A DNA stretch of 49,124 nt, from the sequence record PZ715802.1. One strand, written 5' to 3'. The stretch's first letter is position 1, and each line of letters opens with the position of its first letter. This document shows, piece by piece, positions 5,155 through 12,762 of the stretch. Below the pieces are notes generated by a model. The model was not told where the DNA came from. It made no database searches and was given only the letters and a program-made list of their open reading frames with translations. Source of the stretch: a phage. Made by a program: the position numbers and the translations under genes.

Positions 5155-6735
5155 GTGAATGCTATGTTGATATGGGAAGATTTAAGCAAGCTGGAAAAGC
5201 TGGCTATTAAAGAATTGAGTACGCACGATTTTGATACTTTCGTTAAAATCTGGTTCCCGATCCAGCAAGGTGAAAAATGGATTCCTAACTGGCATCACCT
5301 TTATATCGCAAGAGCGATTGATGAAATTATTGAAGGTACACGGAAAGATACGATCTTTAATGTAACTCCAGGCTCAGGTAAGACGGAATTACTTTCTATC
5401 CATTTCCCGCCGTACTCTTATTTAAAACTTAATAAGGTGCGGAACCTAAATATTTCATTTGCCGATACGCTTGTTAAACGAAACAGTAAGCGTGTGCGTG
5501 ATCTGGTTAATTCTCGAGAATGGCAAGAGCTTTTCCCTGCAAAAACTGGTACAAGCAAAGATGATGAATTTCAGGTTTTAAATGACGCTGGCAAAGTTCG
5601 CCTGGAAATGATTAGTAAATCAATGGGCGGTCAGATTACTGGTAGCCGTGGCGGTTACATTACGCCTGGCGTTTATTCAGGTTGCGTAACGCTTGACGAT
5701 CCAGAAAAGCCAGATGATATGTTTTCGAAGGTAAAACGTGAGCGCGGTCAAATGATCGCAAAGAACACCATTCGATCACGTCGCGCACATTCAGAAACGC
5801 CAATTATCGTTATCCAACAGCGTTTACATGCGCAGGATATGACATGGTTTTTAATGAATGGCGGCATGGGTATAGAGTTTGATCAGATCTCTATTCCGGC
5901 GATGGTTACAGAAGAATACGGGAAATCGCTTCCTGATTGGTTGCAGCCGCACTTTGAAAAGGATGTGCTTTCGTCTGAATACATCGTTATTGATGGCGTG
6001 AAGTATTATTCTTTCTGGCCTAGCAAGGAAAGCATTCATGATCTTAAAGCGCTACGCGATGCGGATTTGTACACGTTCCTTTCTCAGTATCAGCAAGAGC
6101 CAATTGCTCTTGGCGGTAACGCAATTAACGTTGGATGGTTCCAGTATTACGGAACCGGAGAAAAATCAACGATGCCAAAACCGGATCGCTTTGATTATAC
6201 GTTTATTACAGCAGATACCGCTCAGAAAGAAGGTGAGCTAAACGACTACAGCGTTTTATGTTATTGGGGCATGTTCAAAGGCCGTATATATTTTATTGAC
6301 GGTGTGCGCGGAAAATGGGAAGCGCCAATGTTAGAAACGCAGTTTAAAGCGTTTGTTAAACAGTGCTGGAACCGTAACAAAGAATGCGGAAACTTGCGTA
6401 AAATTTACGTGGAAGATAAAGCGAGCGGTACAGGTTTGATCCAGAATTGCCGCAAAGCATTTCCGATAGAAATTACTCCAGTGCAACGCGATAAAGACAA
6501 AGTAACGCGCTGCATGGACGCACAGCCAGTGATCAAGAATGGTTATGTTGTATTGCCGGAATCGCATCACATGCTTGCTGAATTTCTGGCAGAGGCGGCG
6601 GCATTCACTTATGATGATAGCCATCCTCATGATGATATTATGGATAACCTTTTTGATGCGGTTAATATTGAGCTTAACCTTGCTGATAATGCGGTTGATA
6701 GAATGAAGCGTTTAGCTGGATTAGCGAAGCGTTAA
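5155..6735 (+). CDS. terminase large subunit
   Basis: 526 aa; Walker A TPGSGKT; C-terminal nuclease-like region; position before portal; track start is GTG at 5155, alternative ATG at 5164. Confidence 0.85.
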   Translation: MNAMLIWEDLSKLEKLAIKELSTHDFDTFVKIWFPIQQGEKWIPNWHHLYIARAIDEIIEGTRKDTIFNVTPGSGKTELLSIHFPPYSYLKLNKVRNLNISFADTLVKRNSKRVRDLVNSREWQELFPAKTGTSKDDEFQVLNDAGKVRLEMISKSMGGQITGSRGGYITPGVYSGCVTLDDPEKPDDMFSKVKRERGQMIAKNTIRSRRAHSETPIIVIQQRLHAQDMTWFLMNGGMGIEFDQISIPAMVTEEYGKSLPDWLQPHFEKDVLSSEYIVIDGVKYYSFWPSKESIHDLKALRDADLYTFLSQYQQEPIALGGNAINVGWFQYYGTGEKSTMPKPDRFDYTFITADTAQKEGELNDYSVLCYWGMFKGRIYFIDGVRGKWEAPMLETQFKAFVKQCWNRNKECGNLRKIYVEDKASGTGLIQNCRKAFPIEITPVQRDKDKVTRCMDAQPVIKNGYVVLPESHHMLAEFLAEAAAFTYDDSHPHDDIMDNLFDAVNIELNLADNAVDRMKRLAGLAKR

Positions 6736-6749
6736 TGTGTAAAATCAAA

Positions 6750-6774
6750 GGCTGGAATATTCCGGCCTTTTTTA
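6750..6774 (+). terminator. intrinsic terminator/attenuator between terminase and portal
   Basis: stem ggctggaat/attccggcc then TTTTTT; near-identical copy at 10433. Confidence 0.45.
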
Positions 6775-6788
6775 TTATGGGGGTATTT

Positions 6789-8087
6789 ATGAGTGACAAG
6801 GTAAAGGCCATTACTAAAGAAGATGGTTACAACGAAATTTTCGGATCTAAAGATGGAACGTTTAGGCCAAATGCTTTTTACATGCAAAGTGCGGCATTTA
6901 AAACGTTATCGCAATTTTATGAAGAAGATGGAATGGCTCGGCGCATTGTCGATGTTATTCCCGAAGAAATGGTAACGCCTGGTTTTAAAGTTGACGGCTT
7001 GAAAAATGAAAAGGCTTTTAAATCGCGTTGGGATGAATTGCGATTAAACGCTAAAATTATTGATGCGCTTTCATGGTCTCGTTTATTTGGCGGTTCTGCA
7101 ATTCTTGCTGTTGTTGCTGATAACAGAATGCTTAAATCACCTGTAAAGCCTGGAGCACAACTTGAAGATATTCGCGTATATGATCGCTATCAGATCACCA
7201 TTCAGGAACGTGAAACTAATGCGCGGAGTGTTCGTTACGGTGAGCCGAAACTTTATAAGATCTCACCTGGCGGAGATATACCGGAATTCTTTGTTCATTA
7301 CTCGCGTATTTGCATCATTGATGGTGAGCGCGTATCGAATGAAAAACGCCGTCAAAATGATGGTTGGGGCGCAAGCATTTTAAACAAGCGTTTGATTGAG
7401 GCGATTGTTGATTATAACTATTGCCAGGAATTAGCAACGCAATTGCTACGCCGAAAACAACAAGCAGTATGGAAAGCGCGTGATCTGGCTTTGATGTGCG
7501 ACGATGAAGAAGGGCGCTACGCGGCGCGTTTGCGTTTGGCTCAGGTTGATGACGAAAGCGGAGTTGGTAAGGCAATTGGTATTGATGCCACAGATGAAGA
7601 ATATGAGGTTCTCAATTCTGACGTTTCCGGCGTTCCAGAGTTCTTACAGGAAAAGATTGATCGAATTGTTGCCCTAACTGGCATTCATGAAATCATCCTT
7701 AAAAATAAGAACACTGGCGGAGTTTCAGCGAGTCAAAACACGGCGCTAGAGACTTTCTATAAGTTGATTGATCGCAAGCGCGTAGAGGATTACAAGCCGA
7801 TTCTTGAATTCCTTTTGCCGTTCATGATCTCAGAATCCGAATGGTCTATTGAATTCGAACCGTTAAGCGTTCCGAGCGATAAGGACAAAGCTGAAATTAT
7901 GGCTAAGAACGTTGAATCTGTTGTAAAATTGAAAGCTGAACAGGCAATTAATCTCAAAGAAACAAGAGACACTTTGCGATCCATTTGTCCAGATCTTAAA
8001 ATCATGGACAATGACAACATTGAATTGCCAGAGCCAGAAGAAGAACAGGAACCGGAACCAGGAACGGAGGAATTAAACAATGAATGA
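6789..8087 (+). CDS. portal protein
   Basis: internal ATG of track ORF 6735-8087 placed after the terminator hairpin; GGGGG RBS; size and position after large terminase. Confidence 0.7.
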   Translation: MSDKVKAITKEDGYNEIFGSKDGTFRPNAFYMQSAAFKTLSQFYEEDGMARRIVDVIPEEMVTPGFKVDGLKNEKAFKSRWDELRLNAKIIDALSWSRLFGGSAILAVVADNRMLKSPVKPGAQLEDIRVYDRYQITIQERETNARSVRYGEPKLYKISPGGDIPEFFVHYSRICIIDGERVSNEKRRQNDGWGASILNKRLIEAIVDYNYCQELATQLLRRKQQAVWKARDLALMCDDEEGRYAARLRLAQVDDESGVGKAIGIDATDEEYEVLNSDVSGVPEFLQEKIDRIVALTGIHEIILKNKNTGGVSASQNTALETFYKLIDRKRVEDYKPILEFLLPFMISESEWSIEFEPLSVPSDKDKAEIMAKNVESVVKLKAEQAINLKETRDTLRSICPDLKIMDNDNIELPEPEEEQEPEPGTEELNNE

Positions 8088-8820
8088 TGTCTCATGGAGA
8101 TTTCCAGAGGCAACGAGGCGCGACGTTGATCGCGCCTTACAATTGCTTGTGAGGGATCTTGTTGTAAGAATGCGCCGTAACACAAAGCGCCTTAAATTTG
8201 ATGATCAGGTTAGTGAGGCGGCGGCAGATAATGAATCATACGCAGAGGAATTAATTTCCGCATTCATTGCGCTACTGCCAACTTTCGCGCTATCCATCTA
8301 TAAATTCAACTCAAAGGAATTTATCAGGATCGCAAATAAGACTGGAGGCAAGAATAATTTAGCCGTCCTGTTGCTGATTGGTCGAGGGGCTAACGCTGGT
8401 GAATCGTGGTACGCTCCTAAATATCACGTATGGCGGCAAATGGTGCGCGACTCTATCAGAAAGATGGTTGACAATATTCTTGACGATTGGGAAATGCAAG
8501 TAAGGTTAGCCGAATTGCACGAAGCGGATCAGAAAAGATTAAACGCAATTATCGAAAGGCGATTTAAGGTCTATAAAAATTGGGCGTCACGTCGCACTTC
8601 TGGTATAGTTGGCGCTTGGAATAGCGTGTTAATGTATCAGCGTTGTGTTGATGCTGGCGTTACCCATTATATTTGGCGCGGTCAGTTAGATGATCGCGAG
8701 CGTGAAAAACATTTGATGTGGGAAAAGAAACGGATCGCCTTAACATCTAATCACGTTTTTCCTGGTGAGGAATTTAATTGTCGTTGTTGGGCGCAACCGG
8801 ATTGGGAGACAGCAAAATGA
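8080..8820 (+). CDS. head morphogenesis / minor head protein
   Basis: ORF track; GGAGGA RBS; position after portal. Confidence 0.5.
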   Translation: MNDVSWRFPEATRRDVDRALQLLVRDLVVRMRRNTKRLKFDDQVSEAAADNESYAEELISAFIALLPTFALSIYKFNSKEFIRIANKTGGKNNLAVLLLIGRGANAGESWYAPKYHVWRQMVRDSIRKMVDNILDDWEMQVRLAELHEADQKRLNAIIERRFKVYKNWASRRTSGIVGAWNSVLMYQRCVDAGVTHYIWRGQLDDREREKHLMWEKKRIALTSNHVFPGEEFNCRCWAQPDWETAK

Positions 8821-9926
8821 AAAAGGTGCAACGTTTTGATAGCGTAAGAGTAAAGGCGCATTTTGATGAACATGGTTTTTTAGTTGATCGGCCTATTGTA
8901 GCGCGGATTGGTTTGCAGATTTACCAAACGCCATTTGGAGAGCGTAGAGAGTTCAGGCCAGCAAGTGAAGTATTCAAGGCTGATTCACTGGCAACCTATG
9001 CAGGAAAACCAATCACAGTAGGTCACGTCACCGTAACGCCGGAAAATGCGCGTAATGTTGTTGTTGGTACTTGTTCAGGCGCTGGCATTCCAAATGGGAT
9101 CGGAGTTGAAGCGCCTTTGAATATTTACGCAAAGGATGCAATTGAAAGCGCGAAGAAAAAACAAACGGCTGAAATCAGCGTTGGCTATACTTCAATTGAT
9201 ATTGATAAGCCAGGTTGGGGGTCTAATGAAACGGGCGAATACATCTTTGAAGAAGATCTAAAAGATGGTGAGCAGCCGCCGAAAGATTGGGTTAAGTTTG
9301 ATGCGCTACAAACAAACATTAGCGTAAACCATATCGCGCTTGTTTTTAAAGGTCGTGCCGGAATTGCAAAATTGAATCTTGATAGCGAGCAGGAATTCCC
9401 GTATGATACTGACGTTAAATTAAATAAAGAGGACGAAGTTATGACCGTTAAAATTAAACTGGATGGTGCTGTTGAATTTGACGTACCAAAAGAGGTTGCT
9501 ACCTTTATCGAAACCGTAAAGGCAGATGCTGAAAAAGCCAAAACCAAAGCCGACAGCCTGGAGGCAGAGCGTGACGCGCTACAGTCGAAAGTTGACGGCA
9601 TTCCGGCGCAGATTGAAGAAGCAGTGAAAAAAGCAAAAGCTGACGCTGATGAACATGCCGCACTGGTCGCTACCGCTTCCGAAGTTGGCGTAAAATGCGA
9701 CGGACTAACAGCAAAAGAAATTAAGATCGCATATGTGAAAGAGGTCATGGGTAATGACATTAGCGCAAAGGCTGATGCATATATTGATACCGCTTTTGAT
9801 ATCGCGAAAGAATCTGATAAAATGGCGGCTCAACGTATTGCACTGAAAGGCGATTCAGCAAAAGAAAAAGAAGATGGCGCGGATTCTGTTTTAAATCCTT
9901 CCGCACGTCTGAACAAAGCTAAATAA
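8817..9926 (+). CDS. prohead scaffold / protease-like protein
   Basis: internal ATG of track ORF 8778-9926 in ATGA overlap with upstream stop; C-terminal coiled-coil-rich AEKAKTKADSLEAERDALQSK region; position before capsid. Confidence 0.45.
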   Translation: MKKVQRFDSVRVKAHFDEHGFLVDRPIVARIGLQIYQTPFGERREFRPASEVFKADSLATYAGKPITVGHVTVTPENARNVVVGTCSGAGIPNGIGVEAPLNIYAKDAIESAKKKQTAEISVGYTSIDIDKPGWGSNETGEYIFEEDLKDGEQPPKDWVKFDALQTNISVNHIALVFKGRAGIAKLNLDSEQEFPYDTDVKLNKEDEVMTVKIKLDGAVEFDVPKEVATFIETVKADAEKAKTKADSLEAERDALQSKVDGIPAQIEEAVKKAKADADEHAALVATASEVGVKCDGLTAKEIKIAYVKEVMGNDISAKADAYIDTAFDIAKESDKMAAQRIALKGDSAKEKEDGADSVLNPSARLNKAK

Positions 9927-9938
9927 GGAGAAAATATT

Positions 9939-10427
9939 ATGGCTCAGATTTCAGCAAGTTATCATGTTGCAATGGCTCGCGCCTTGCCTGGTCAAGTTTC
10001 CGACACTTCCGCGTATAACATCGACGGAGCTTGTGTTCTTGAGAATGCAGCAGGCAATCAGAATAAGCCTGTTTTTGTTGGTGTGGCGGTCCAGCATGGC
10101 GGCGTTGATGCCATGGGCAATAAGCTGATTAAGCCGATGGAGGCAAGCGGCAAGGCTTACGGCGTTGCTATTCGATCCAACTTCCAGACCACATCTAAAG
10201 ATGGTCGCATGGTTTATGAGGCTGGTAGCGGAATTAACGTAATGACTAAAGGGCGCGTTTGGATGTTATCTGTAGAGTCGGAAGCGCCAGCATTCAAAAC
10301 AGCTATCAAACTTGATGATTCAGGACAGGTTGATTTAACGTCTGGATTAATTGAAACCACTTGGATCGCAACTGGAGACTTTACGGAATTCCAAGGTCTA
10401 AAACTCGTTGAGGTTCAACTGGTATAA
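9939..10427 (+). CDS. structural protein, paralog A of a tandem pair
   Basis: AAGGAGA RBS; shares YNIDG, NV.T.GR.W and C-terminal ..VQL with 10471-10911. Confidence 0.5.
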   Translation: MAQISASYHVAMARALPGQVSDTSAYNIDGACVLENAAGNQNKPVFVGVAVQHGGVDAMGNKLIKPMEASGKAYGVAIRSNFQTTSKDGRMVYEAGSGINVMTKGRVWMLSVESEAPAFKTAIKLDDSGQVDLTSGLIETTWIATGDFTEFQGLKLVEVQLV

Positions 10428-10432
10428 TAATA

Positions 10433-10457
10433 AGGCCGGATTATTCCGGCCTTTTAT
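10433..10457 (+). terminator. intrinsic terminator/attenuator
   Basis: stem aggccgga/tccggcct, loop ttat, then TTTTA; near-identical to hairpin at 6750. Confidence 0.5.
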
Positions 10458-10470
10458 ATATGGTGGTTTT

Positions 10471-10911
10471 ATGTCTGATTACGGTTCTATAATAGGTATA
10501 GTTGAAAATGGGTGCTTGGTAGATTCAAGCCTTTATAATATAGATGGCTCGCCAGTTATGGATGTTTCAGCCGTGATAGGTAAGGCCGTATGTGTTGATC
10601 GCATATCTTGCGGTTACAAAATAATCAGCCACAATTTTAATGAAAACTCAAAGCATTACGGAATCGTTACGCGTGATTATATGGATTTTTGCAAAGAATA
10701 TTACGACGCCGGAGATCCTGTTAACGTAATAACTCATGGTAGAATTTGGGTAATCACTCAGGACGAACAGGATATTCCATCGTATAAAGATCCTGTTTTT
10801 GTTAAAGACAATGGCTCTATATCAACAAGTGGATTTCCTACTAGTTGGTTTTTTACTGGCGAATACGTAAGATATTCACACGGATATATTTTACTATCAG
10901 TTCAGTTGTAG
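10471..10911 (+). CDS. structural protein, paralog B of a tandem pair
   Basis: internal ATG of track ORF 10408-10911 placed after the terminator; protein similarity to 9939-10427. Confidence 0.5.
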   Translation: MSDYGSIIGIVENGCLVDSSLYNIDGSPVMDVSAVIGKAVCVDRISCGYKIISHNFNENSKHYGIVTRDYMDFCKEYYDAGDPVNVITHGRIWVITQDEQDIPSYKDPVFVKDNGSISTSGFPTSWFFTGEYVRYSHGYILLSVQL

Positions 10912-11000
10912 CGTGCTAACACAAAAAACACTTGAACGTTTAACAAAAAATGCTATATTAAAGCCGTTATTGTGACGGCTTTTCTATGAGGGGAAATATT

Positions 11001-11978
11001 ATGTCTAAAGAAAAAATTAAATTTGATGAATTTGAAGCGTCTGTGATTTCTAATCACCTGCAACTGCAAGGCGCTAAAAACGATGCGTCTGATATGGGTA
11101 TTTGGACGGCTCAAGAGCTACACAAAATTAAGTCTCAGGCTTATGAGAAAGAATATCCGGCAGGTTCCGCACTGCGTGTATTCCCTGTAACGTCAGAGCT
11201 TTCCGATACTGATAAAACTTTTGAATACCAGACTTTCGACAAAGTAGGTCACGCAAAAATCATCGCTGATTATACTGATGATCTGCCAACTGTTGACGCG
11301 ATGATGACTTCTGAATTTGGTAAAGTGTTCCGCCTGGGTAATGCGTTCCTGATTTCCATTGACGAAATCAAAGCAGGTCAACGCACTGGCAAGAGCCTTT
11401 CCGCTCGCAAGGCAAACGCCGCACAGAATGCGCATGATCAGCTTGTCAATCACCTGGTTTTCAAAGGCTCTAAGCCGCACAAAATTATCAGTGTGTTTGA
11501 ACATCCGAACATCACAACTATCACCTCCGCAGGTTGGAACAACGCCGCAGGTACTGGTAAAAAGCCGGAAACAGCACAGGATGAATTAGAGCAAGCGATT
11601 GAAAAAATCGAAACGCTGACCAACGGGCAGCACCGCGCTACTCACATTCTGATCCCGCCGTCAATGCGTAAGGTTTTGAGCGTTCGTATGCCGGAAACCA
11701 CCATGAGCTATCTTGATTACTTCAAGCAGCAGAATGGAGGTATCACTATCGAATCCATTTCCGAGCTTGAAGATATCGACGGCGCAGGGACTAAAGCGGC
11801 GCTGGTTTACGAAAAAGATCCGATGAACATGAGCATTGAGATTCCAGAAGCGTTTAACATGCTGACCGCGCAACCTAAAGACCTGCATTTCAAAGTGCCT
11901 TGCACCTCTAAATGTACTGGCCTGACGATTTACCGTCCGTTGACGCTGGTTCTGATTAAAGGTCTTGTAGTAGGCTGA
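11001..11978 (+). CDS. major capsid protein (by position and size)
   Basis: internal ATG of track ORF 10986-11978 with GAGGGG RBS; about 325 aa; strong terminator immediately downstream. Confidence 0.6.
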   Translation: MSKEKIKFDEFEASVISNHLQLQGAKNDASDMGIWTAQELHKIKSQAYEKEYPAGSALRVFPVTSELSDTDKTFEYQTFDKVGHAKIIADYTDDLPTVDAMMTSEFGKVFRLGNAFLISIDEIKAGQRTGKSLSARKANAAQNAHDQLVNHLVFKGSKPHKIISVFEHPNITTITSAGWNNAAGTGKKPETAQDELEQAIEKIETLTNGQHRATHILIPPSMRKVLSVRMPETTMSYLDYFKQQNGGITIESISELEDIDGAGTKAALVYEKDPMNMSIEIPEAFNMLTAQPKDLHFKVPCTSKCTGLTIYRPLTLVLIKGLVVG

Positions 11979-11994
11979 TAATTCAATTAATATA

Positions 11995-12021
11995 GGGAAC
12001 CGTTAAAAGGTTCCCTTTTTT
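11995..12021 (+). terminator. intrinsic terminator
   Basis: stem gggaacc/ggttccc then TTTTTT. Confidence 0.65.
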
Positions 12022-12039
12022 ATATATGGAGAAAAACAA

Positions 12040-12312
12040 ATGGCTAAAGAAAAAGAAATTACACTGGTTAACACTGGCGTTGCACTGATTATTATTGATC
12101 GCATTGACGTTATGCCAGGTAAGGAAATTACCGTTGCGGAAAGCGTGTTAGAGCGGCAAGGCACTAAAGCACTTATGGCAGAAGGTAAGCTAACAATCAA
12201 AGATAACAGCGATCTCAATGCTGAAATCGTTGAAGCGTTTAAGAGCAAGCGCAAAAAAGATCCGAACGAAGGCAAGACAAAAAAAGAGCTTGAGGACGGC
12301 GGCGAGTATTAA
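12040..12312 (+). CDS. hypothetical head-associated protein
   Basis: ORF track; GGAG RBS; flanked by terminators. Confidence 0.45.
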   Translation: MAKEKEITLVNTGVALIIIDRIDVMPGKEITVAESVLERQGTKALMAEGKLTIKDNSDLNAEIVEAFKSKRKKDPNEGKTKKELEDGGEY

Positions 12313-12319
12313 TTAATAA

Positions 12320-12344
12320 AGGCGCTTATTTAGCGCCTTTTTTA
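12320..12344 (+). terminator. intrinsic terminator
   Basis: stem aggcgct/agcgcct then TTTTTT. Confidence 0.65.
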
Positions 12345-12357
12345 TTGGGGGTAAATC

Positions 12358-12762
12358 ATGAATGATATTGAGATCTTAGAGCAGATTTATAAACTTGCTC
12401 CAGCATTTAAAAAAGTAGATCCTGAATTGATTCAGGCATGGATCGAATTAGCAAAAGATTTCGTTTGCGTTAACCACTTCAAAGACAAGTACAATCGCGC
12501 TGTTGCTCTTTATACGTTGCACCTGATGACTCTTGACGGCGCAATGAAACAGGAAGGTGAAAGCGTAGAAAGCTACTCGCATCGTATAGCGTCATTTTCC
12601 CTGACTGGTGAGTTTTCTCAGACATTCAGCAAAGTTAGTGACGACACAAGCGGTAACACGTTGCGCCAAACGCCGTGGGGTAAAATGTATGAAGTTCTTA
12701 ACAAGAAAAAAGGCGGCGGATTTGGCCTTACAACTGCCTTTCGTCGGAGGTGCTCACGATGA
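12358..12762 (+). CDS. head-tail connector (gp6-like) protein
   Basis: ORF track; position; ALYTLHLM-type motif recalled from head-tail connector families. Confidence 0.45.

What the first reader, a model, noticed from the sequence alone, without database searches (positions are those of the whole stretch)
9939..10911. Tandem paralogous structural genes between scaffold and capsid genes
The products of 9939-10427 and 10471-10911 share YNIDG, a central NV(M/I)T.GR(V/I)W block and a C-terminal ..VQL, so they arose by tandem duplication and have since diverged. Their position suggests head decoration or accessory capsid proteins; the divergence could alter capsid surface properties.
Basis: seen in the sequence. 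Interest (0 to 1): 0.5.

Follow-up and report, generated by a model that had tools for sequence, protein, structure and literature searches.

The report
Paired capsid cement protein genes
These two adjacent genes are diverged copies of a phage capsid "cement" protein, matching the pair already solved by cryo-EM in coliphage T1, except that the second copy here lacks T1's outward-facing Ig-like domain; this is a well-understood kind of feature.

Summary
ORF A (9939-10427, 162 aa) and ORF B (10471-10911, 146 aa) are real paralogues: 32% identity, BLASTP E 5e-19.

The window is a Tlsvirus genome (T1-like siphophage, Drexlerviridae). Both proteins pass the Pfam thresholds for the trimeric cement/decoration families PF22758 and PF23982. 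Their closest solved relatives are the two cement proteins of phages T1 and FCWL1:
- A matches T1 gp49 (E 6e-43).
- B matches the cement core of T1 gp48 (E 3e-13), but lacks gp48's linker and Big_2 Ig-like domain.

In T1, gp49 forms 80 homotrimers, and 60 further sites hold heterotrimers of one gp48 and two gp49. That is the most likely arrangement here, by homology only.

What I add:
- The A+B pair is present in every surveyed relative whose capsid protein is at least 72% identical. More distant Drexlerviridae have one copy.
- The Ig domain appears to have been lost repeatedly, but the B core was always kept.
- The segment holding the last third of A plus B is swapped as a cassette between phages with 97-99% identical capsid protein.
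- A structurally conserved terminator separates A from B. It could help keep B scarce.

Verdict: a new member of a known kind; modest interest.

The parts
9939..10427 (+). Gene A: major cement/decoration protein (162 aa), orthologue of T1 gp49. It has a conserved N-arm (MAQISASY...), and the model is confident from about residue 30 onward.
   Evidence: Pfam PF22758 88 bits and PF23982 62 bits. PDB 9kmg_a/9kzj 158-aa cement protein, E 6e-43. The AF2 model (pLDDT 78.5, residues 1-27 disordered) has T1/FCWL1 cement chains as best Foldseek hits, TM 0.75-0.8.
10432..10457 (+). GC-rich hairpin plus T-run (intrinsic-terminator-like) between A and B. There is no room for a promoter before B's RBS.
   Evidence: Terminator scan. 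RNA fold -19.2 kcal/mol, z -3.9. A hairpin plus T-run with a different sequence but the same structure sits at this position in T1, DELF2, Sfin-6, G29-2, EC125, tunus and K50evo16. It is annotated as a terminator in G29-2.
10471..10911 (+). Gene B: minor cement paralogue (146 aa). It is a T1 gp48-type cement core without the linker and Big_2 Ig-like domain. Its N-arm is 4 residues shorter than A's and begins MSDY.
   Evidence: Pfam PF23982 91 bits and PF22758 53 bits, with no Big_2 hit at E<=1. PDB best hits are the N-terminal ~140 residues of the 255-aa BIG2 chains 9kzj_H/9kmh_ak, E 3e-13. The AF2 model (pLDDT 72.8) best matches T1/FCWL1 cement chains, TM 0.69-0.75. Of 18 variable nucleotide positions among 8 Tlsvirus copies, 12 are third-codon positions.
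10932..10959 (+). Promoter-like site ahead of the capsid gene: TTGAAC-16 nt-(TG)cTATATT. It contains one copy (10938-10956) of the 19-nt repeat TTTTAACAAAAAGTGCTAT that occurs throughout the genome.
   Evidence: Promoter scan. The TTGMMC-N16-TGCTATNAT arrangement is present in this spacer in all genera examined, including single-copy phages. The repeat has 13 copies against 0.12 expected.
10960..10982 (+). Second hairpin, immediately after the promoter-like -10 and ahead of the capsid gene's RBS. It bounds the B cassette on the right.
   Evidence: RNA fold. A hairpin (usually with a T-run) is present at this position in all two-copy relatives.
11001..11978 (+). Major capsid protein gene: context, and the binding partner of A and B.
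   Evidence: PF09950 188 bits, phrog_264. The start at ATG 11001 is inferred from the GAGGGG RBS and the TLS annotation.
8817..9926 (+). Prohead protease/scaffold gene: upstream context.
   Evidence: DUF2213 84 bits; phrog_530 head maturation protease, E 4e-109.
10277..10915 (+). Exchangeable cassette: the last third of A (from about codon 113), the terminator, and all of B.
   Evidence: Loci L025 and L027 are colinear with the window at 84-99% nt identity on both sides. This segment has no nucleotide match in them; an Ig-bearing version sits in its place. Identities there: MCP 97-99%, protease 94-99%, A C-terminal part 42-46%, B 38-42%. Between the window and TLS, 10217-11016 is 96-100% identical while the flanks are 67-99%.

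Best explanation
A and B are the two paralogous capsid cement (decoration) proteins of a Tlsvirus, a T1-like siphophage. A corresponds to T1 gp49 and B to the cement core of T1 gp48. By homology with the T1 cryo-EM structure, both adopt the fold described there as beta-tulip and bind the outside of the expanded T=7 shell at the 140 threefold and quasi-threefold positions. A is the bulk subunit: it forms homotrimers, with its conserved N-arm anchoring it to the capsid protein. B replaces one A subunit in one class of 60 sites, giving heterotrimers of one B and two A. From the trimer counts I infer these are the penton-adjacent sites, so about 360 A and 60 B per head. Unlike T1 gp48, this B ends exactly at the end of the cement core and displays no Ig-like domain. 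Its retained role is therefore most likely structural, as a site-specific cement subunit near the vertices, not surface adhesion. The low level of B could be helped by the terminator between A and B, since B has no promoter of its own. What is shown: the paralogy, the family membership, the homology to the solved T1/FCWL1 proteins, the absence of the Ig domain, and the conserved terminator structure. What is inferred: heterotrimer formation and placement in this phage, the stoichiometry, and control by terminator read-through.
For: - Paralogy: BLASTP E 5e-19.
- Family: both proteins exceed the gathering score of PF22758 and PF23982 and share phrog_1989.
- Solved relatives: A matches the 158-aa T1/FCWL1 cement chain at E 6e-43. 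B matches residues ~14-139 of the 255-aa BIG2 chain at E 3e-13.
- Models: the AF2 models of both have T1/FCWL1 cement chains as their best PDB hits (TM 0.69-0.8), followed by Pam3 gp6 and XM1 gp53.
- T1 arrangement: PMC11945409 reports 80 gp49 homotrimers plus 60 heterotrimers of one gp48 and two gp49. The gp49 N-terminus is embedded in the shell and gp48 sits only on the outside. The legend of its Figure 2A shows four homotrimers and two heterotrimers beside a hexon and a penton. If those six are the hexon's own neighbours, two per hexon fits only the penton-adjacent class of a T=7 lattice (my inference). The FCWL1 portal-vertex entry 9kmh holds 5 chains of the B-type protein.
- Gene order: protease, A, B, capsid protein, as in T1.
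- B is kept and constrained: it is present in all ~52 surveyed loci with MCP at least 72% identical. It retains all 14 family-invariant residues. Variable sites fall mostly in third codon positions (12 of 18).
- Terminator: a hairpin plus T-run sits between A and B in every two-copy genus examined, with a different sequence each time.
Against: - There are no direct data for this phage or any Tlsvirus: no structure, and no mass spectrometry that detects B. The TLS paper assigns a gel band only to the A homologue, and only tentatively.
- Orthology of this B with T1 gp48 is not resolved by the core tree. The split grouping all B proteins was recovered in only 25% of NJ bootstraps, against 97% for the non-Tunavirus B clade.
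- B is only 28-30% identical to T1 gp48.
- Read-through control is inferred from sequence alone. The promoter-like site ahead of the capsid gene overlaps a repeat of unknown function that is inverted there relative to its other copies.
- Identity of the A C-terminal part does not track B identity better than the A N-terminal part does (Spearman 0.67 against 0.81). Co-evolution of a heterotrimer interface is therefore not demonstrated.
Confidence: 0.8

Rival explanations
1. B is a decaying remnant: after losing the Ig-like domain that gave it its purpose, the 146-aa stump is no longer incorporated or needed.
For: B lacks the Big_2 domain that T1 gp48 carries. B is more AT-rich than its neighbours (37% against 44-47% GC; GC3 31%) and has a weaker RBS. 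Some pairwise pN/pS values within Tlsvirus are high (0.5-0.8), but they rest on 2-6 substitutions.
Against: The ORF is intact and at least 95% identical in protein in all 44 closest phage records. All 14 family-invariant residues are retained. Of 18 variable sites, 12 are third-codon positions. Ig-less B genes of 143-173 aa are kept in 26 surveyed loci from lineages whose B is only 32-49% identical to this one. No surveyed relative with MCP at least 72% identical has lost B.
Confidence: 0.05
2. B is a genuine capsid cement protein but does not copy the T1 arrangement. It forms B-only trimers at a subset of sites, for example around vertices or the portal only, or acts transiently during prohead maturation.
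For: Heterotrimer formation was not tested here. In the PDB listing the B-type protein of FCWL1 appears only in the portal-vertex entry (5 chains) and not in the icosahedral capsid entry. B-core identity to T1 gp48 is low, 28-30%.
Against: T1, the only relative with a published description, shows heterotrimers of one gp48 and two gp49 at 60 sites. The cassette that is exchanged among relatives carries A's C-terminal third together with B. In the homologue XM1 gp53 the C-terminal domain is the trimerisation domain. This fits co-assembly, although physical linkage alone would give the same pattern.
Confidence: 0.12
3. The A/B pairs of Tunavirinae (T1) and Tempevirinae (this phage) arose by two independent duplications. 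On this view B is an analogue, not an orthologue, of T1 gp48.
For: In the bootstrapped NJ tree, T1-type B does not group with the other B proteins (all-B split 25%). T1 B is closer to T1 A (42%) than to this B (29%).
Against: The gene order and slot are the same. Both B types share the 4-residue shorter N-arm. The C-terminal Big_2 domains of Tunavirus B and of K50/Warwickvirus B are homologous with shared motifs (E 1e-7 to 2e-16), and the latter B proteins sit in the same 97%-supported clade as this one. With A as outgroup, all B proteins form one clade in an NJ tree without bootstraps. The two-copy state coincides with one capsid-protein similarity group.
Confidence: 0.15
4. A and B are scaffolding proteins, as several GenBank records label them ('putative scaffolding protein', 'SbcC-like scaffolding protein').
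For: These labels appear in some deposited records. The genes lie next to the protease/scaffold gene.
Against: Homologues are resolved on the outside of mature T1, FCWL1, XM1 and Pam3 capsids. The models are beta-rich folds, not coiled coils. The scaffold-like coiled-coil region lies in the upstream protease gene.
Confidence: 0.02

Closest known systems
Coliphage T1 cement proteins gp49 and gp48 (PDB 9kzj; PMC11945409) and the equivalent pair of phage FCWL1 (PDB 9kmg/9kmh)
   Same: Same virus family and same gene order (protease, A, B, capsid protein). A is 55% identical to gp49. B aligns to the gp48 cement core, shares its shortened N-arm, and is the minor partner. The fold is the same by model-to-structure comparison.
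   Different: B here is 146 aa and stops at the end of the core. T1 gp48 is 255 aa with a proline-rich linker and a Big_2 Ig-like domain that projects outward. The B cores are only 28-30% identical, and orthology is not resolved by the core tree.
Single-gene trimeric cement proteins of the same Pfam families: Pam3 gp6, E217 gp24 (PF22758) and XM1 gp53 (PF23982); structurally also TW1 gp56 and lambda gpD
   Same: [quoted passage not shown] Both A and B pass both Pfam thresholds, and the models hit Pam3 and XM1 chains.
   Different: Those phages use one gene and 140 homotrimers. Here, as in T1, there are two diverged copies.
Herpesvirus triplex (one Tri1 and two Tri2)
   Same: A 1:2 heterotrimer of related proteins that ties three capsomers together. 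The T1 authors draw this analogy.
   Different: No detectable sequence relationship. The triplex is required for herpesvirus capsid assembly (my own knowledge; not tested here).
Other occupants of the same slot in single-copy Drexlerviridae: collagen-repeat proteins of Rogunavirus-like phages
   Same: A gene sits between the A terminator and the capsid gene, presumably an accessory head-surface protein.
   Different: It is unrelated in sequence: a 481-aa protein with collagen triple-helix repeats and no cement domain.

Membership tests
Pfam PF22758 Phage_cement (E217 gp24/Pam3 gp6) and PF23982 XM1_gp53_minor_capsid | Sequence score above the curated gathering threshold (27 bits) over most of the profile | tested here: met
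   A scores 88.3 and 62.2 bits; B scores 53.0 and 90.7 bits. Both cover nearly the whole profile.
Trimeric cement/decoration proteins described as beta-tulip (T1 gp49/gp48, Pam3 gp6, XM1 gp53) | The fold: a beta-rich core preceded by a flexible N-arm | tested here: met
   AF2 models have core pLDDT 70-96 with N-terminal residues 1-25/27 disordered. Best Foldseek PDB hits are T1/FCWL1 cement chains (TM 0.69-0.8), then Pam3 and XM1.
Trimeric cement/decoration proteins described as beta-tulip (T1 gp49/gp48, Pam3 gp6, XM1 gp53) | Gene located beside the major capsid protein gene in the head module | tested here: met
   The order is protease/scaffold (8817-9926), A, B, MCP (11001-11978).
Trimeric cement/decoration proteins described as beta-tulip (T1 gp49/gp48, Pam3 gp6, XM1 gp53) | [quoted passage not shown] | not testable with these tools
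   Known for the homologues. No structure or proteomics exists for this phage.
T1 gp48-type minor cement paralogue | A second cement-domain gene immediately downstream of the gp49-type gene, with a shortened, divergent N-arm | tested here: met
   gene order; 4-residue shorter N-terminus in all B-type proteins including T1 gp48.
T1 gp48-type minor cement paralogue | C-terminal linker plus Big_2 Ig-like domain | tested here: not met
   No Big_2 hit at E<=1, and the protein ends at the core. T1, tunus, EC125 and K50 B proteins carry the extra ~110-aa C-terminal domain; Big_2 was detected by Pfam in T1 and tunus, and the other two are homologous to these by BLASTP.
T1 gp48-type minor cement paralogue | Incorporation as one subunit of a heterotrimer with two gp49-type subunits at 60 sites | not testable with these tools
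   Only single-chain prediction was available. This is known only for T1.
T1 gp48-type minor cement paralogue | Common descent with T1 gp48 (orthology) | tested here: inconclusive
   The core NJ bootstrap does not recover an all-B split (25%). The homologous Ig domains of Tunavirus and non-Tunavirus B proteins and the outgroup-rooted NJ tree favour a single origin.

The most novel reading that the evidence does not exclude
The conserved job of the minor paralogue is not Ig display. It is a vertex-adjacent structural role carried by its core. Three observations point this way. The Ig domain appears to have been lost independently several times while the core was never lost. The unit made of A's C-terminal part plus B behaves as a horizontally exchangeable cassette, so phages with essentially the same shell carry either an Ig-bearing or an Ig-less version. 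Its copy number may be set by read-through of a structurally conserved terminator. If so, T1-like phages would offer a natural, swappable system for studying how a paralogue breaks the symmetry of a cement lattice.
Probability: 0.4. Interest if true: 0.45.

Novelty: new member of a known kind. Interest (0 to 1): 0.3.

Why it matters
It gives a confident, structure-based function to two genes that most deposited Tlsvirus genomes label 'hypothetical', 'scaffolding protein', or, for TLS gp35, 'IgG-domain-containing decoration protein'. The last label does not fit a 146-aa protein with no Ig domain.

For phage engineering, the B slot and the Ig-bearing and Ig-less cassettes mark a naturally tolerated site for capsid display or for changing surface properties.

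For capsid biology, repeated Ig loss with retention of the core suggests that the minor paralogue has a structural role of its own. That can be tested with TLS or U136B.

Tried and rejected
- The word-indexed homologue search with B returned only 9 proteins. It was too shallow to survey the family, so I used tblastn on the phage collection and a scan of viral contigs instead.
- The literature search for 'HtjA' gave almost only irrelevant hits.
- The FCWL1 paper is not in the library. Only a passing citation was found, so FCWL1 evidence is limited to PDB titles and chain counts.
- The Sfin-1 virion LC-MS/MS table did not show either homologue in the passages returned, and its matches look unreliable. 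I did not use it as evidence either way.
- I tested whether identity of A's C-terminal part tracks B better than A's N-terminal part does, which would suggest co-evolution. It does not: Spearman 0.67 against 0.81. That argument was dropped.
- I first read the 19-nt repeat as a general extended -10 promoter. The other 12 copies lack a -35 and lie antisense to local genes in that reading. Only the copy upstream of the capsid gene is called promoter-like, and with caution.
- A bootstrapped NJ tree of 53 B cores timed out. The tree therefore has no support values.
- dN/dS for B within Tlsvirus has little power, with 2-13 substitutions per pair. I used the codon-position distribution instead.

Full report
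**What is there.** The window is a near-complete Tlsvirus genome (Drexlerviridae, Tempevirinae). Region 8800-12400 is 99.7% identical to Salmonella phage vB_SenS_UTK0006 and 91.5% identical to the type phage TLS. ORF A is 9939-10427 (162 aa) and ORF B is 10471-10911 (146 aa). They lie on the + strand between the prohead protease/scaffold gene (8817-9926; DUF2213, phrog_530) and the major capsid protein gene (ATG 11001 to 11978; PF09950, phrog_264). Each has its own ribosome-binding site. B's alternative upstream TTG start would run through a terminator hairpin, and all B-type proteins in relatives outside Tunavirus begin MSDY (T1 gp48 begins MAYEN). ATG 10471 is therefore the start.

**Check of the observation.** A and B align at 32% identity, E 5e-19.

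**What the proteins are.**
- Both exceed the curated thresholds of Pfam PF22758 (Phage_cement, E217 gp24/Pam3 gp6) and PF23982 (XM1 gp53 minor capsid protein).
- Against PDB sequences, A matches a 158-aa 'cement protein II / decoration protein' chain at E 6e-43. B matches residues ~14-139 of a 255-aa 'BIG2 domain-containing protein / decoration protein gp29' at E 3e-13. These chains come from the capsids of phage T1 (9kzj) and phage FCWL1 (9kmg, 9kmh).
- AF2 models of both proteins have a disordered N-arm (residues 1-25/27) and a confident beta-rich core (pLDDT 72.8 and 78.5). Their best PDB matches are the same T1/FCWL1 chains (TM 0.69-0.8), followed by Pam3 gp6 and XM1 gp53.

**How the homologues work.** The T1 cryo-EM paper (PMC11945409) describes a T=7 head of 415 capsid-protein copies.
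- Both proteins are described there as having a beta-tulip fold.
- The gp49 N-terminus is embedded in the shell. gp48 sits only on the outside, and its flexible C-terminal Ig-like domain projects outward.
- XM1 and Pam3 use a single gene and 140 homotrimers.

A T=7 lattice has 20 strict threefold sites, 60 hexon-only quasi-threefold sites (three per hexon) and 60 penton-adjacent sites (two per hexon). The legend of T1's Figure 2A shows four homotrimers and two heterotrimers beside a hexon and a penton. If those six are the hexon's own neighbours, the 80/60 split fits only the penton-adjacent class for the heterotrimers. This is my inference. It agrees with the five B-type chains in the FCWL1 portal-vertex entry.

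**Difference from T1.** T1 gp48 is 255 aa: a cement core, a proline-rich linker and a Big_2 domain. The window's B stops at the end of the core and has no Big_2 hit at E<=1. The GenBank label of the 146-aa TLS orthologue, 'IgG-domain-containing decoration protein', therefore appears to have been carried over from longer homologues and does not fit.

**Distribution and history.** I surveyed 90 Drexlerviridae loci.
- Every locus whose capsid protein is at least 72% identical to the window's has A plus B (about 52 loci).
- In 26 of these, B is Ig-less (143-173 aa). In 26, B is 250-338 aa with the Ig domain.
- Loci with capsid protein 50-63% identical (Webervirus, Eclunavirus, Rogunavirus and others) have a single cement gene. 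A few of them carry an unrelated gene in the slot, for example a 481-aa collagen-repeat protein in Rogue1.

On whether there was one duplication or two:
- The non-Tunavirus B proteins form a clade with 97% NJ bootstrap support.
- Tunavirus B is not reliably joined to them: the all-B split was recovered in 25% of bootstraps.
- However, the Big_2 domains of Tunavirus B and of K50/Warwickvirus B are clearly homologous (E 1e-7 to 2e-16, shared DKTG.W and W(T/A)ANDGSG motifs).
- An A-rooted NJ tree puts all B proteins together, with Ig-less forms interleaved among Ig-bearing ones (no support values).

The simplest reading is one old duplication in the ancestor of Tunavirinae and Tempevirinae, with an ancestral B that carried the Ig domain, followed by repeated loss of that domain. 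The core was never lost in the sample.

**Is B functional here?**
- It is intact and at least 95% identical in protein in all 44 closest phage records.
- It keeps all 14 family-invariant residues.
- Of 18 variable nucleotide sites among eight Tlsvirus copies, 12 are third-codon positions.

These points argue against a decaying remnant.

**Cassette behaviour.**
- Two viral contigs (L025, L027) match the window at 84-99% nt identity on both sides, with capsid protein 97-99% and protease 94-99% identical.
- Window segment 10277-10915 has no nucleotide match in them. This segment holds the last third of A from about codon 113, the terminator and all of B. An Ig-bearing version occupies its place.
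- Between the window and TLS, 10217-11016 is 96-100% identical while the flanks range from 67% to 99%.
- B's dS is 0.033, against 0.28-0.39 for the protease/scaffold, A and capsid genes and 0.59 for the downstream DUF7444 gene.
- B is also AT-richer: 37% GC against 44-47%.

So this segment moves as a unit among phages with essentially the same shell. In XM1 gp53 the C-terminal domain is the trimerisation domain. The co-transfer fits A and B assembling together, but simple physical linkage explains it equally well, and a correlation test gave no specific support.

**Expression layout.**
- The A-B spacer holds a strong hairpin plus T-run (10432-10457; -19.2 kcal/mol, z -3.9). There is no room for a promoter before B's RBS.
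- Every two-copy genus examined has a hairpin plus T-run there with a different sequence.
- The B-capsid gene spacer holds a promoter-like TTGAAC-N16-(TG)cTATATT (10932-10959) followed by a second hairpin. This arrangement is also present in single-copy phages, where it directly follows A's terminator.
- B therefore sits in a slot between A's terminator and the capsid gene's promoter-like site. It could be made only by read-through, which would suit a 6:1 ratio of A to B. This is inference from sequence.
- The promoter call is uncertain because it overlaps a genome-wide repeat of unknown function.

**Verdict.** The system is already known from T1 and FCWL1. This locus is a new member whose minor paralogue lacks the Ig domain. 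Interest is modest at 0.3. The added points are the repeated Ig loss with core retention, the swappable cassette and the terminator-bounded slot. All three are testable but not surprising to a capsid specialist.

Noticed in passing
window 10938-10956 and 12 other sites (2456, 26137, 31831, 34289, 35674, 38854, 41698, 43849, 44668, 45178, 46822, 49075): The 19-nt repeat TTTTAACAAAAAGTGCTAT occurs 13 times against 0.12 expected. It corresponds to the 21-nt direct repeat of unknown function reported in TLS (PMC11447400). Compared with ORFs of at least 110 aa, the copy ahead of the capsid gene is the only one inverted relative to the local direction of transcription. It is also the only one with a TTGAAC -35-like hexamer beside it. 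Several other copies directly follow a GC hairpin.
   Followed up: partly
window 10017-10216 (A residues ~27-93): This stretch of A is only 67-82% identical in nucleotides to TLS, whereas the surrounding regions are 97-98% identical. Within it, the protein loop at residues ~34-72 matches Hanrivervirus G29-2 at all but three positions (LENAAGNQN..VFVGVAVQHGGVDAMGNKLIKPM.ASGKAYG). It looks like a mosaic recombination patch in a variable, possibly surface-exposed, part of the major cement protein.
   Followed up: partly
window 10471-10911: B is unusually uniform among Tlsvirus genomes (pS 0.02-0.075, dS 0.033 against TLS) while the protease/scaffold, A and capsid genes show dS 0.28-0.39 and DUF7444 0.59. 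B also has lower GC (37%, GC3 31%) than they do. This suggests recent spread of this Ig-less allele by recombination; it remains unexplained.
   Followed up: partly
L004 3035-4480 (phage Rogue1); also L055, L058, L085: In single-copy Rogunavirus-like phages the slot between the cement gene and the capsid gene holds an unrelated gene of 347-505 aa. In Rogue1 this is a 481-aa protein with collagen triple-helix repeats and no cement domain, possibly a different head-surface fibre.
   Followed up: partly
L001 3146-3586 (TLS hdeC, GJGTLS_35): GenBank annotates the 146-aa TLS orthologue of B as 'IgG-domain-containing decoration protein'. The protein is 99% identical to the window's B, which has no Ig/Big_2 hit. 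The label is probably wrong.
   Followed up: yes
window 12040-12312: A conserved 90-aa protein (DUF7444, phrog_2716, 'JK_24P') is encoded just after the capsid gene. It is bracketed by terminator-like hairpins at 11994-12016 and 12318-12340. Its function is unknown, and it could be another small head protein.
   Followed up: no
window 6735-6800: The mechanical portal ORF (and the UTK0006 annotation) starts at 6735, but a terminator-like hairpin lies at 6747-6770 inside it. TLS annotates a portal 19 codons shorter. The true start is probably the internal ATG encoding MSDKVKAI.
   Followed up: no
L066 (IMGVR_UViG_2974632794, 53,145 bp): This locus shows three cement-domain ORFs (143, 183 and 193 aa). 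A cement-protein homologue from phage 2019SD1, whose contig has the same length, is flagged UNVERIFIED_ASMBLY, so this is probably an assembly artefact and not a triplication.
   Followed up: no
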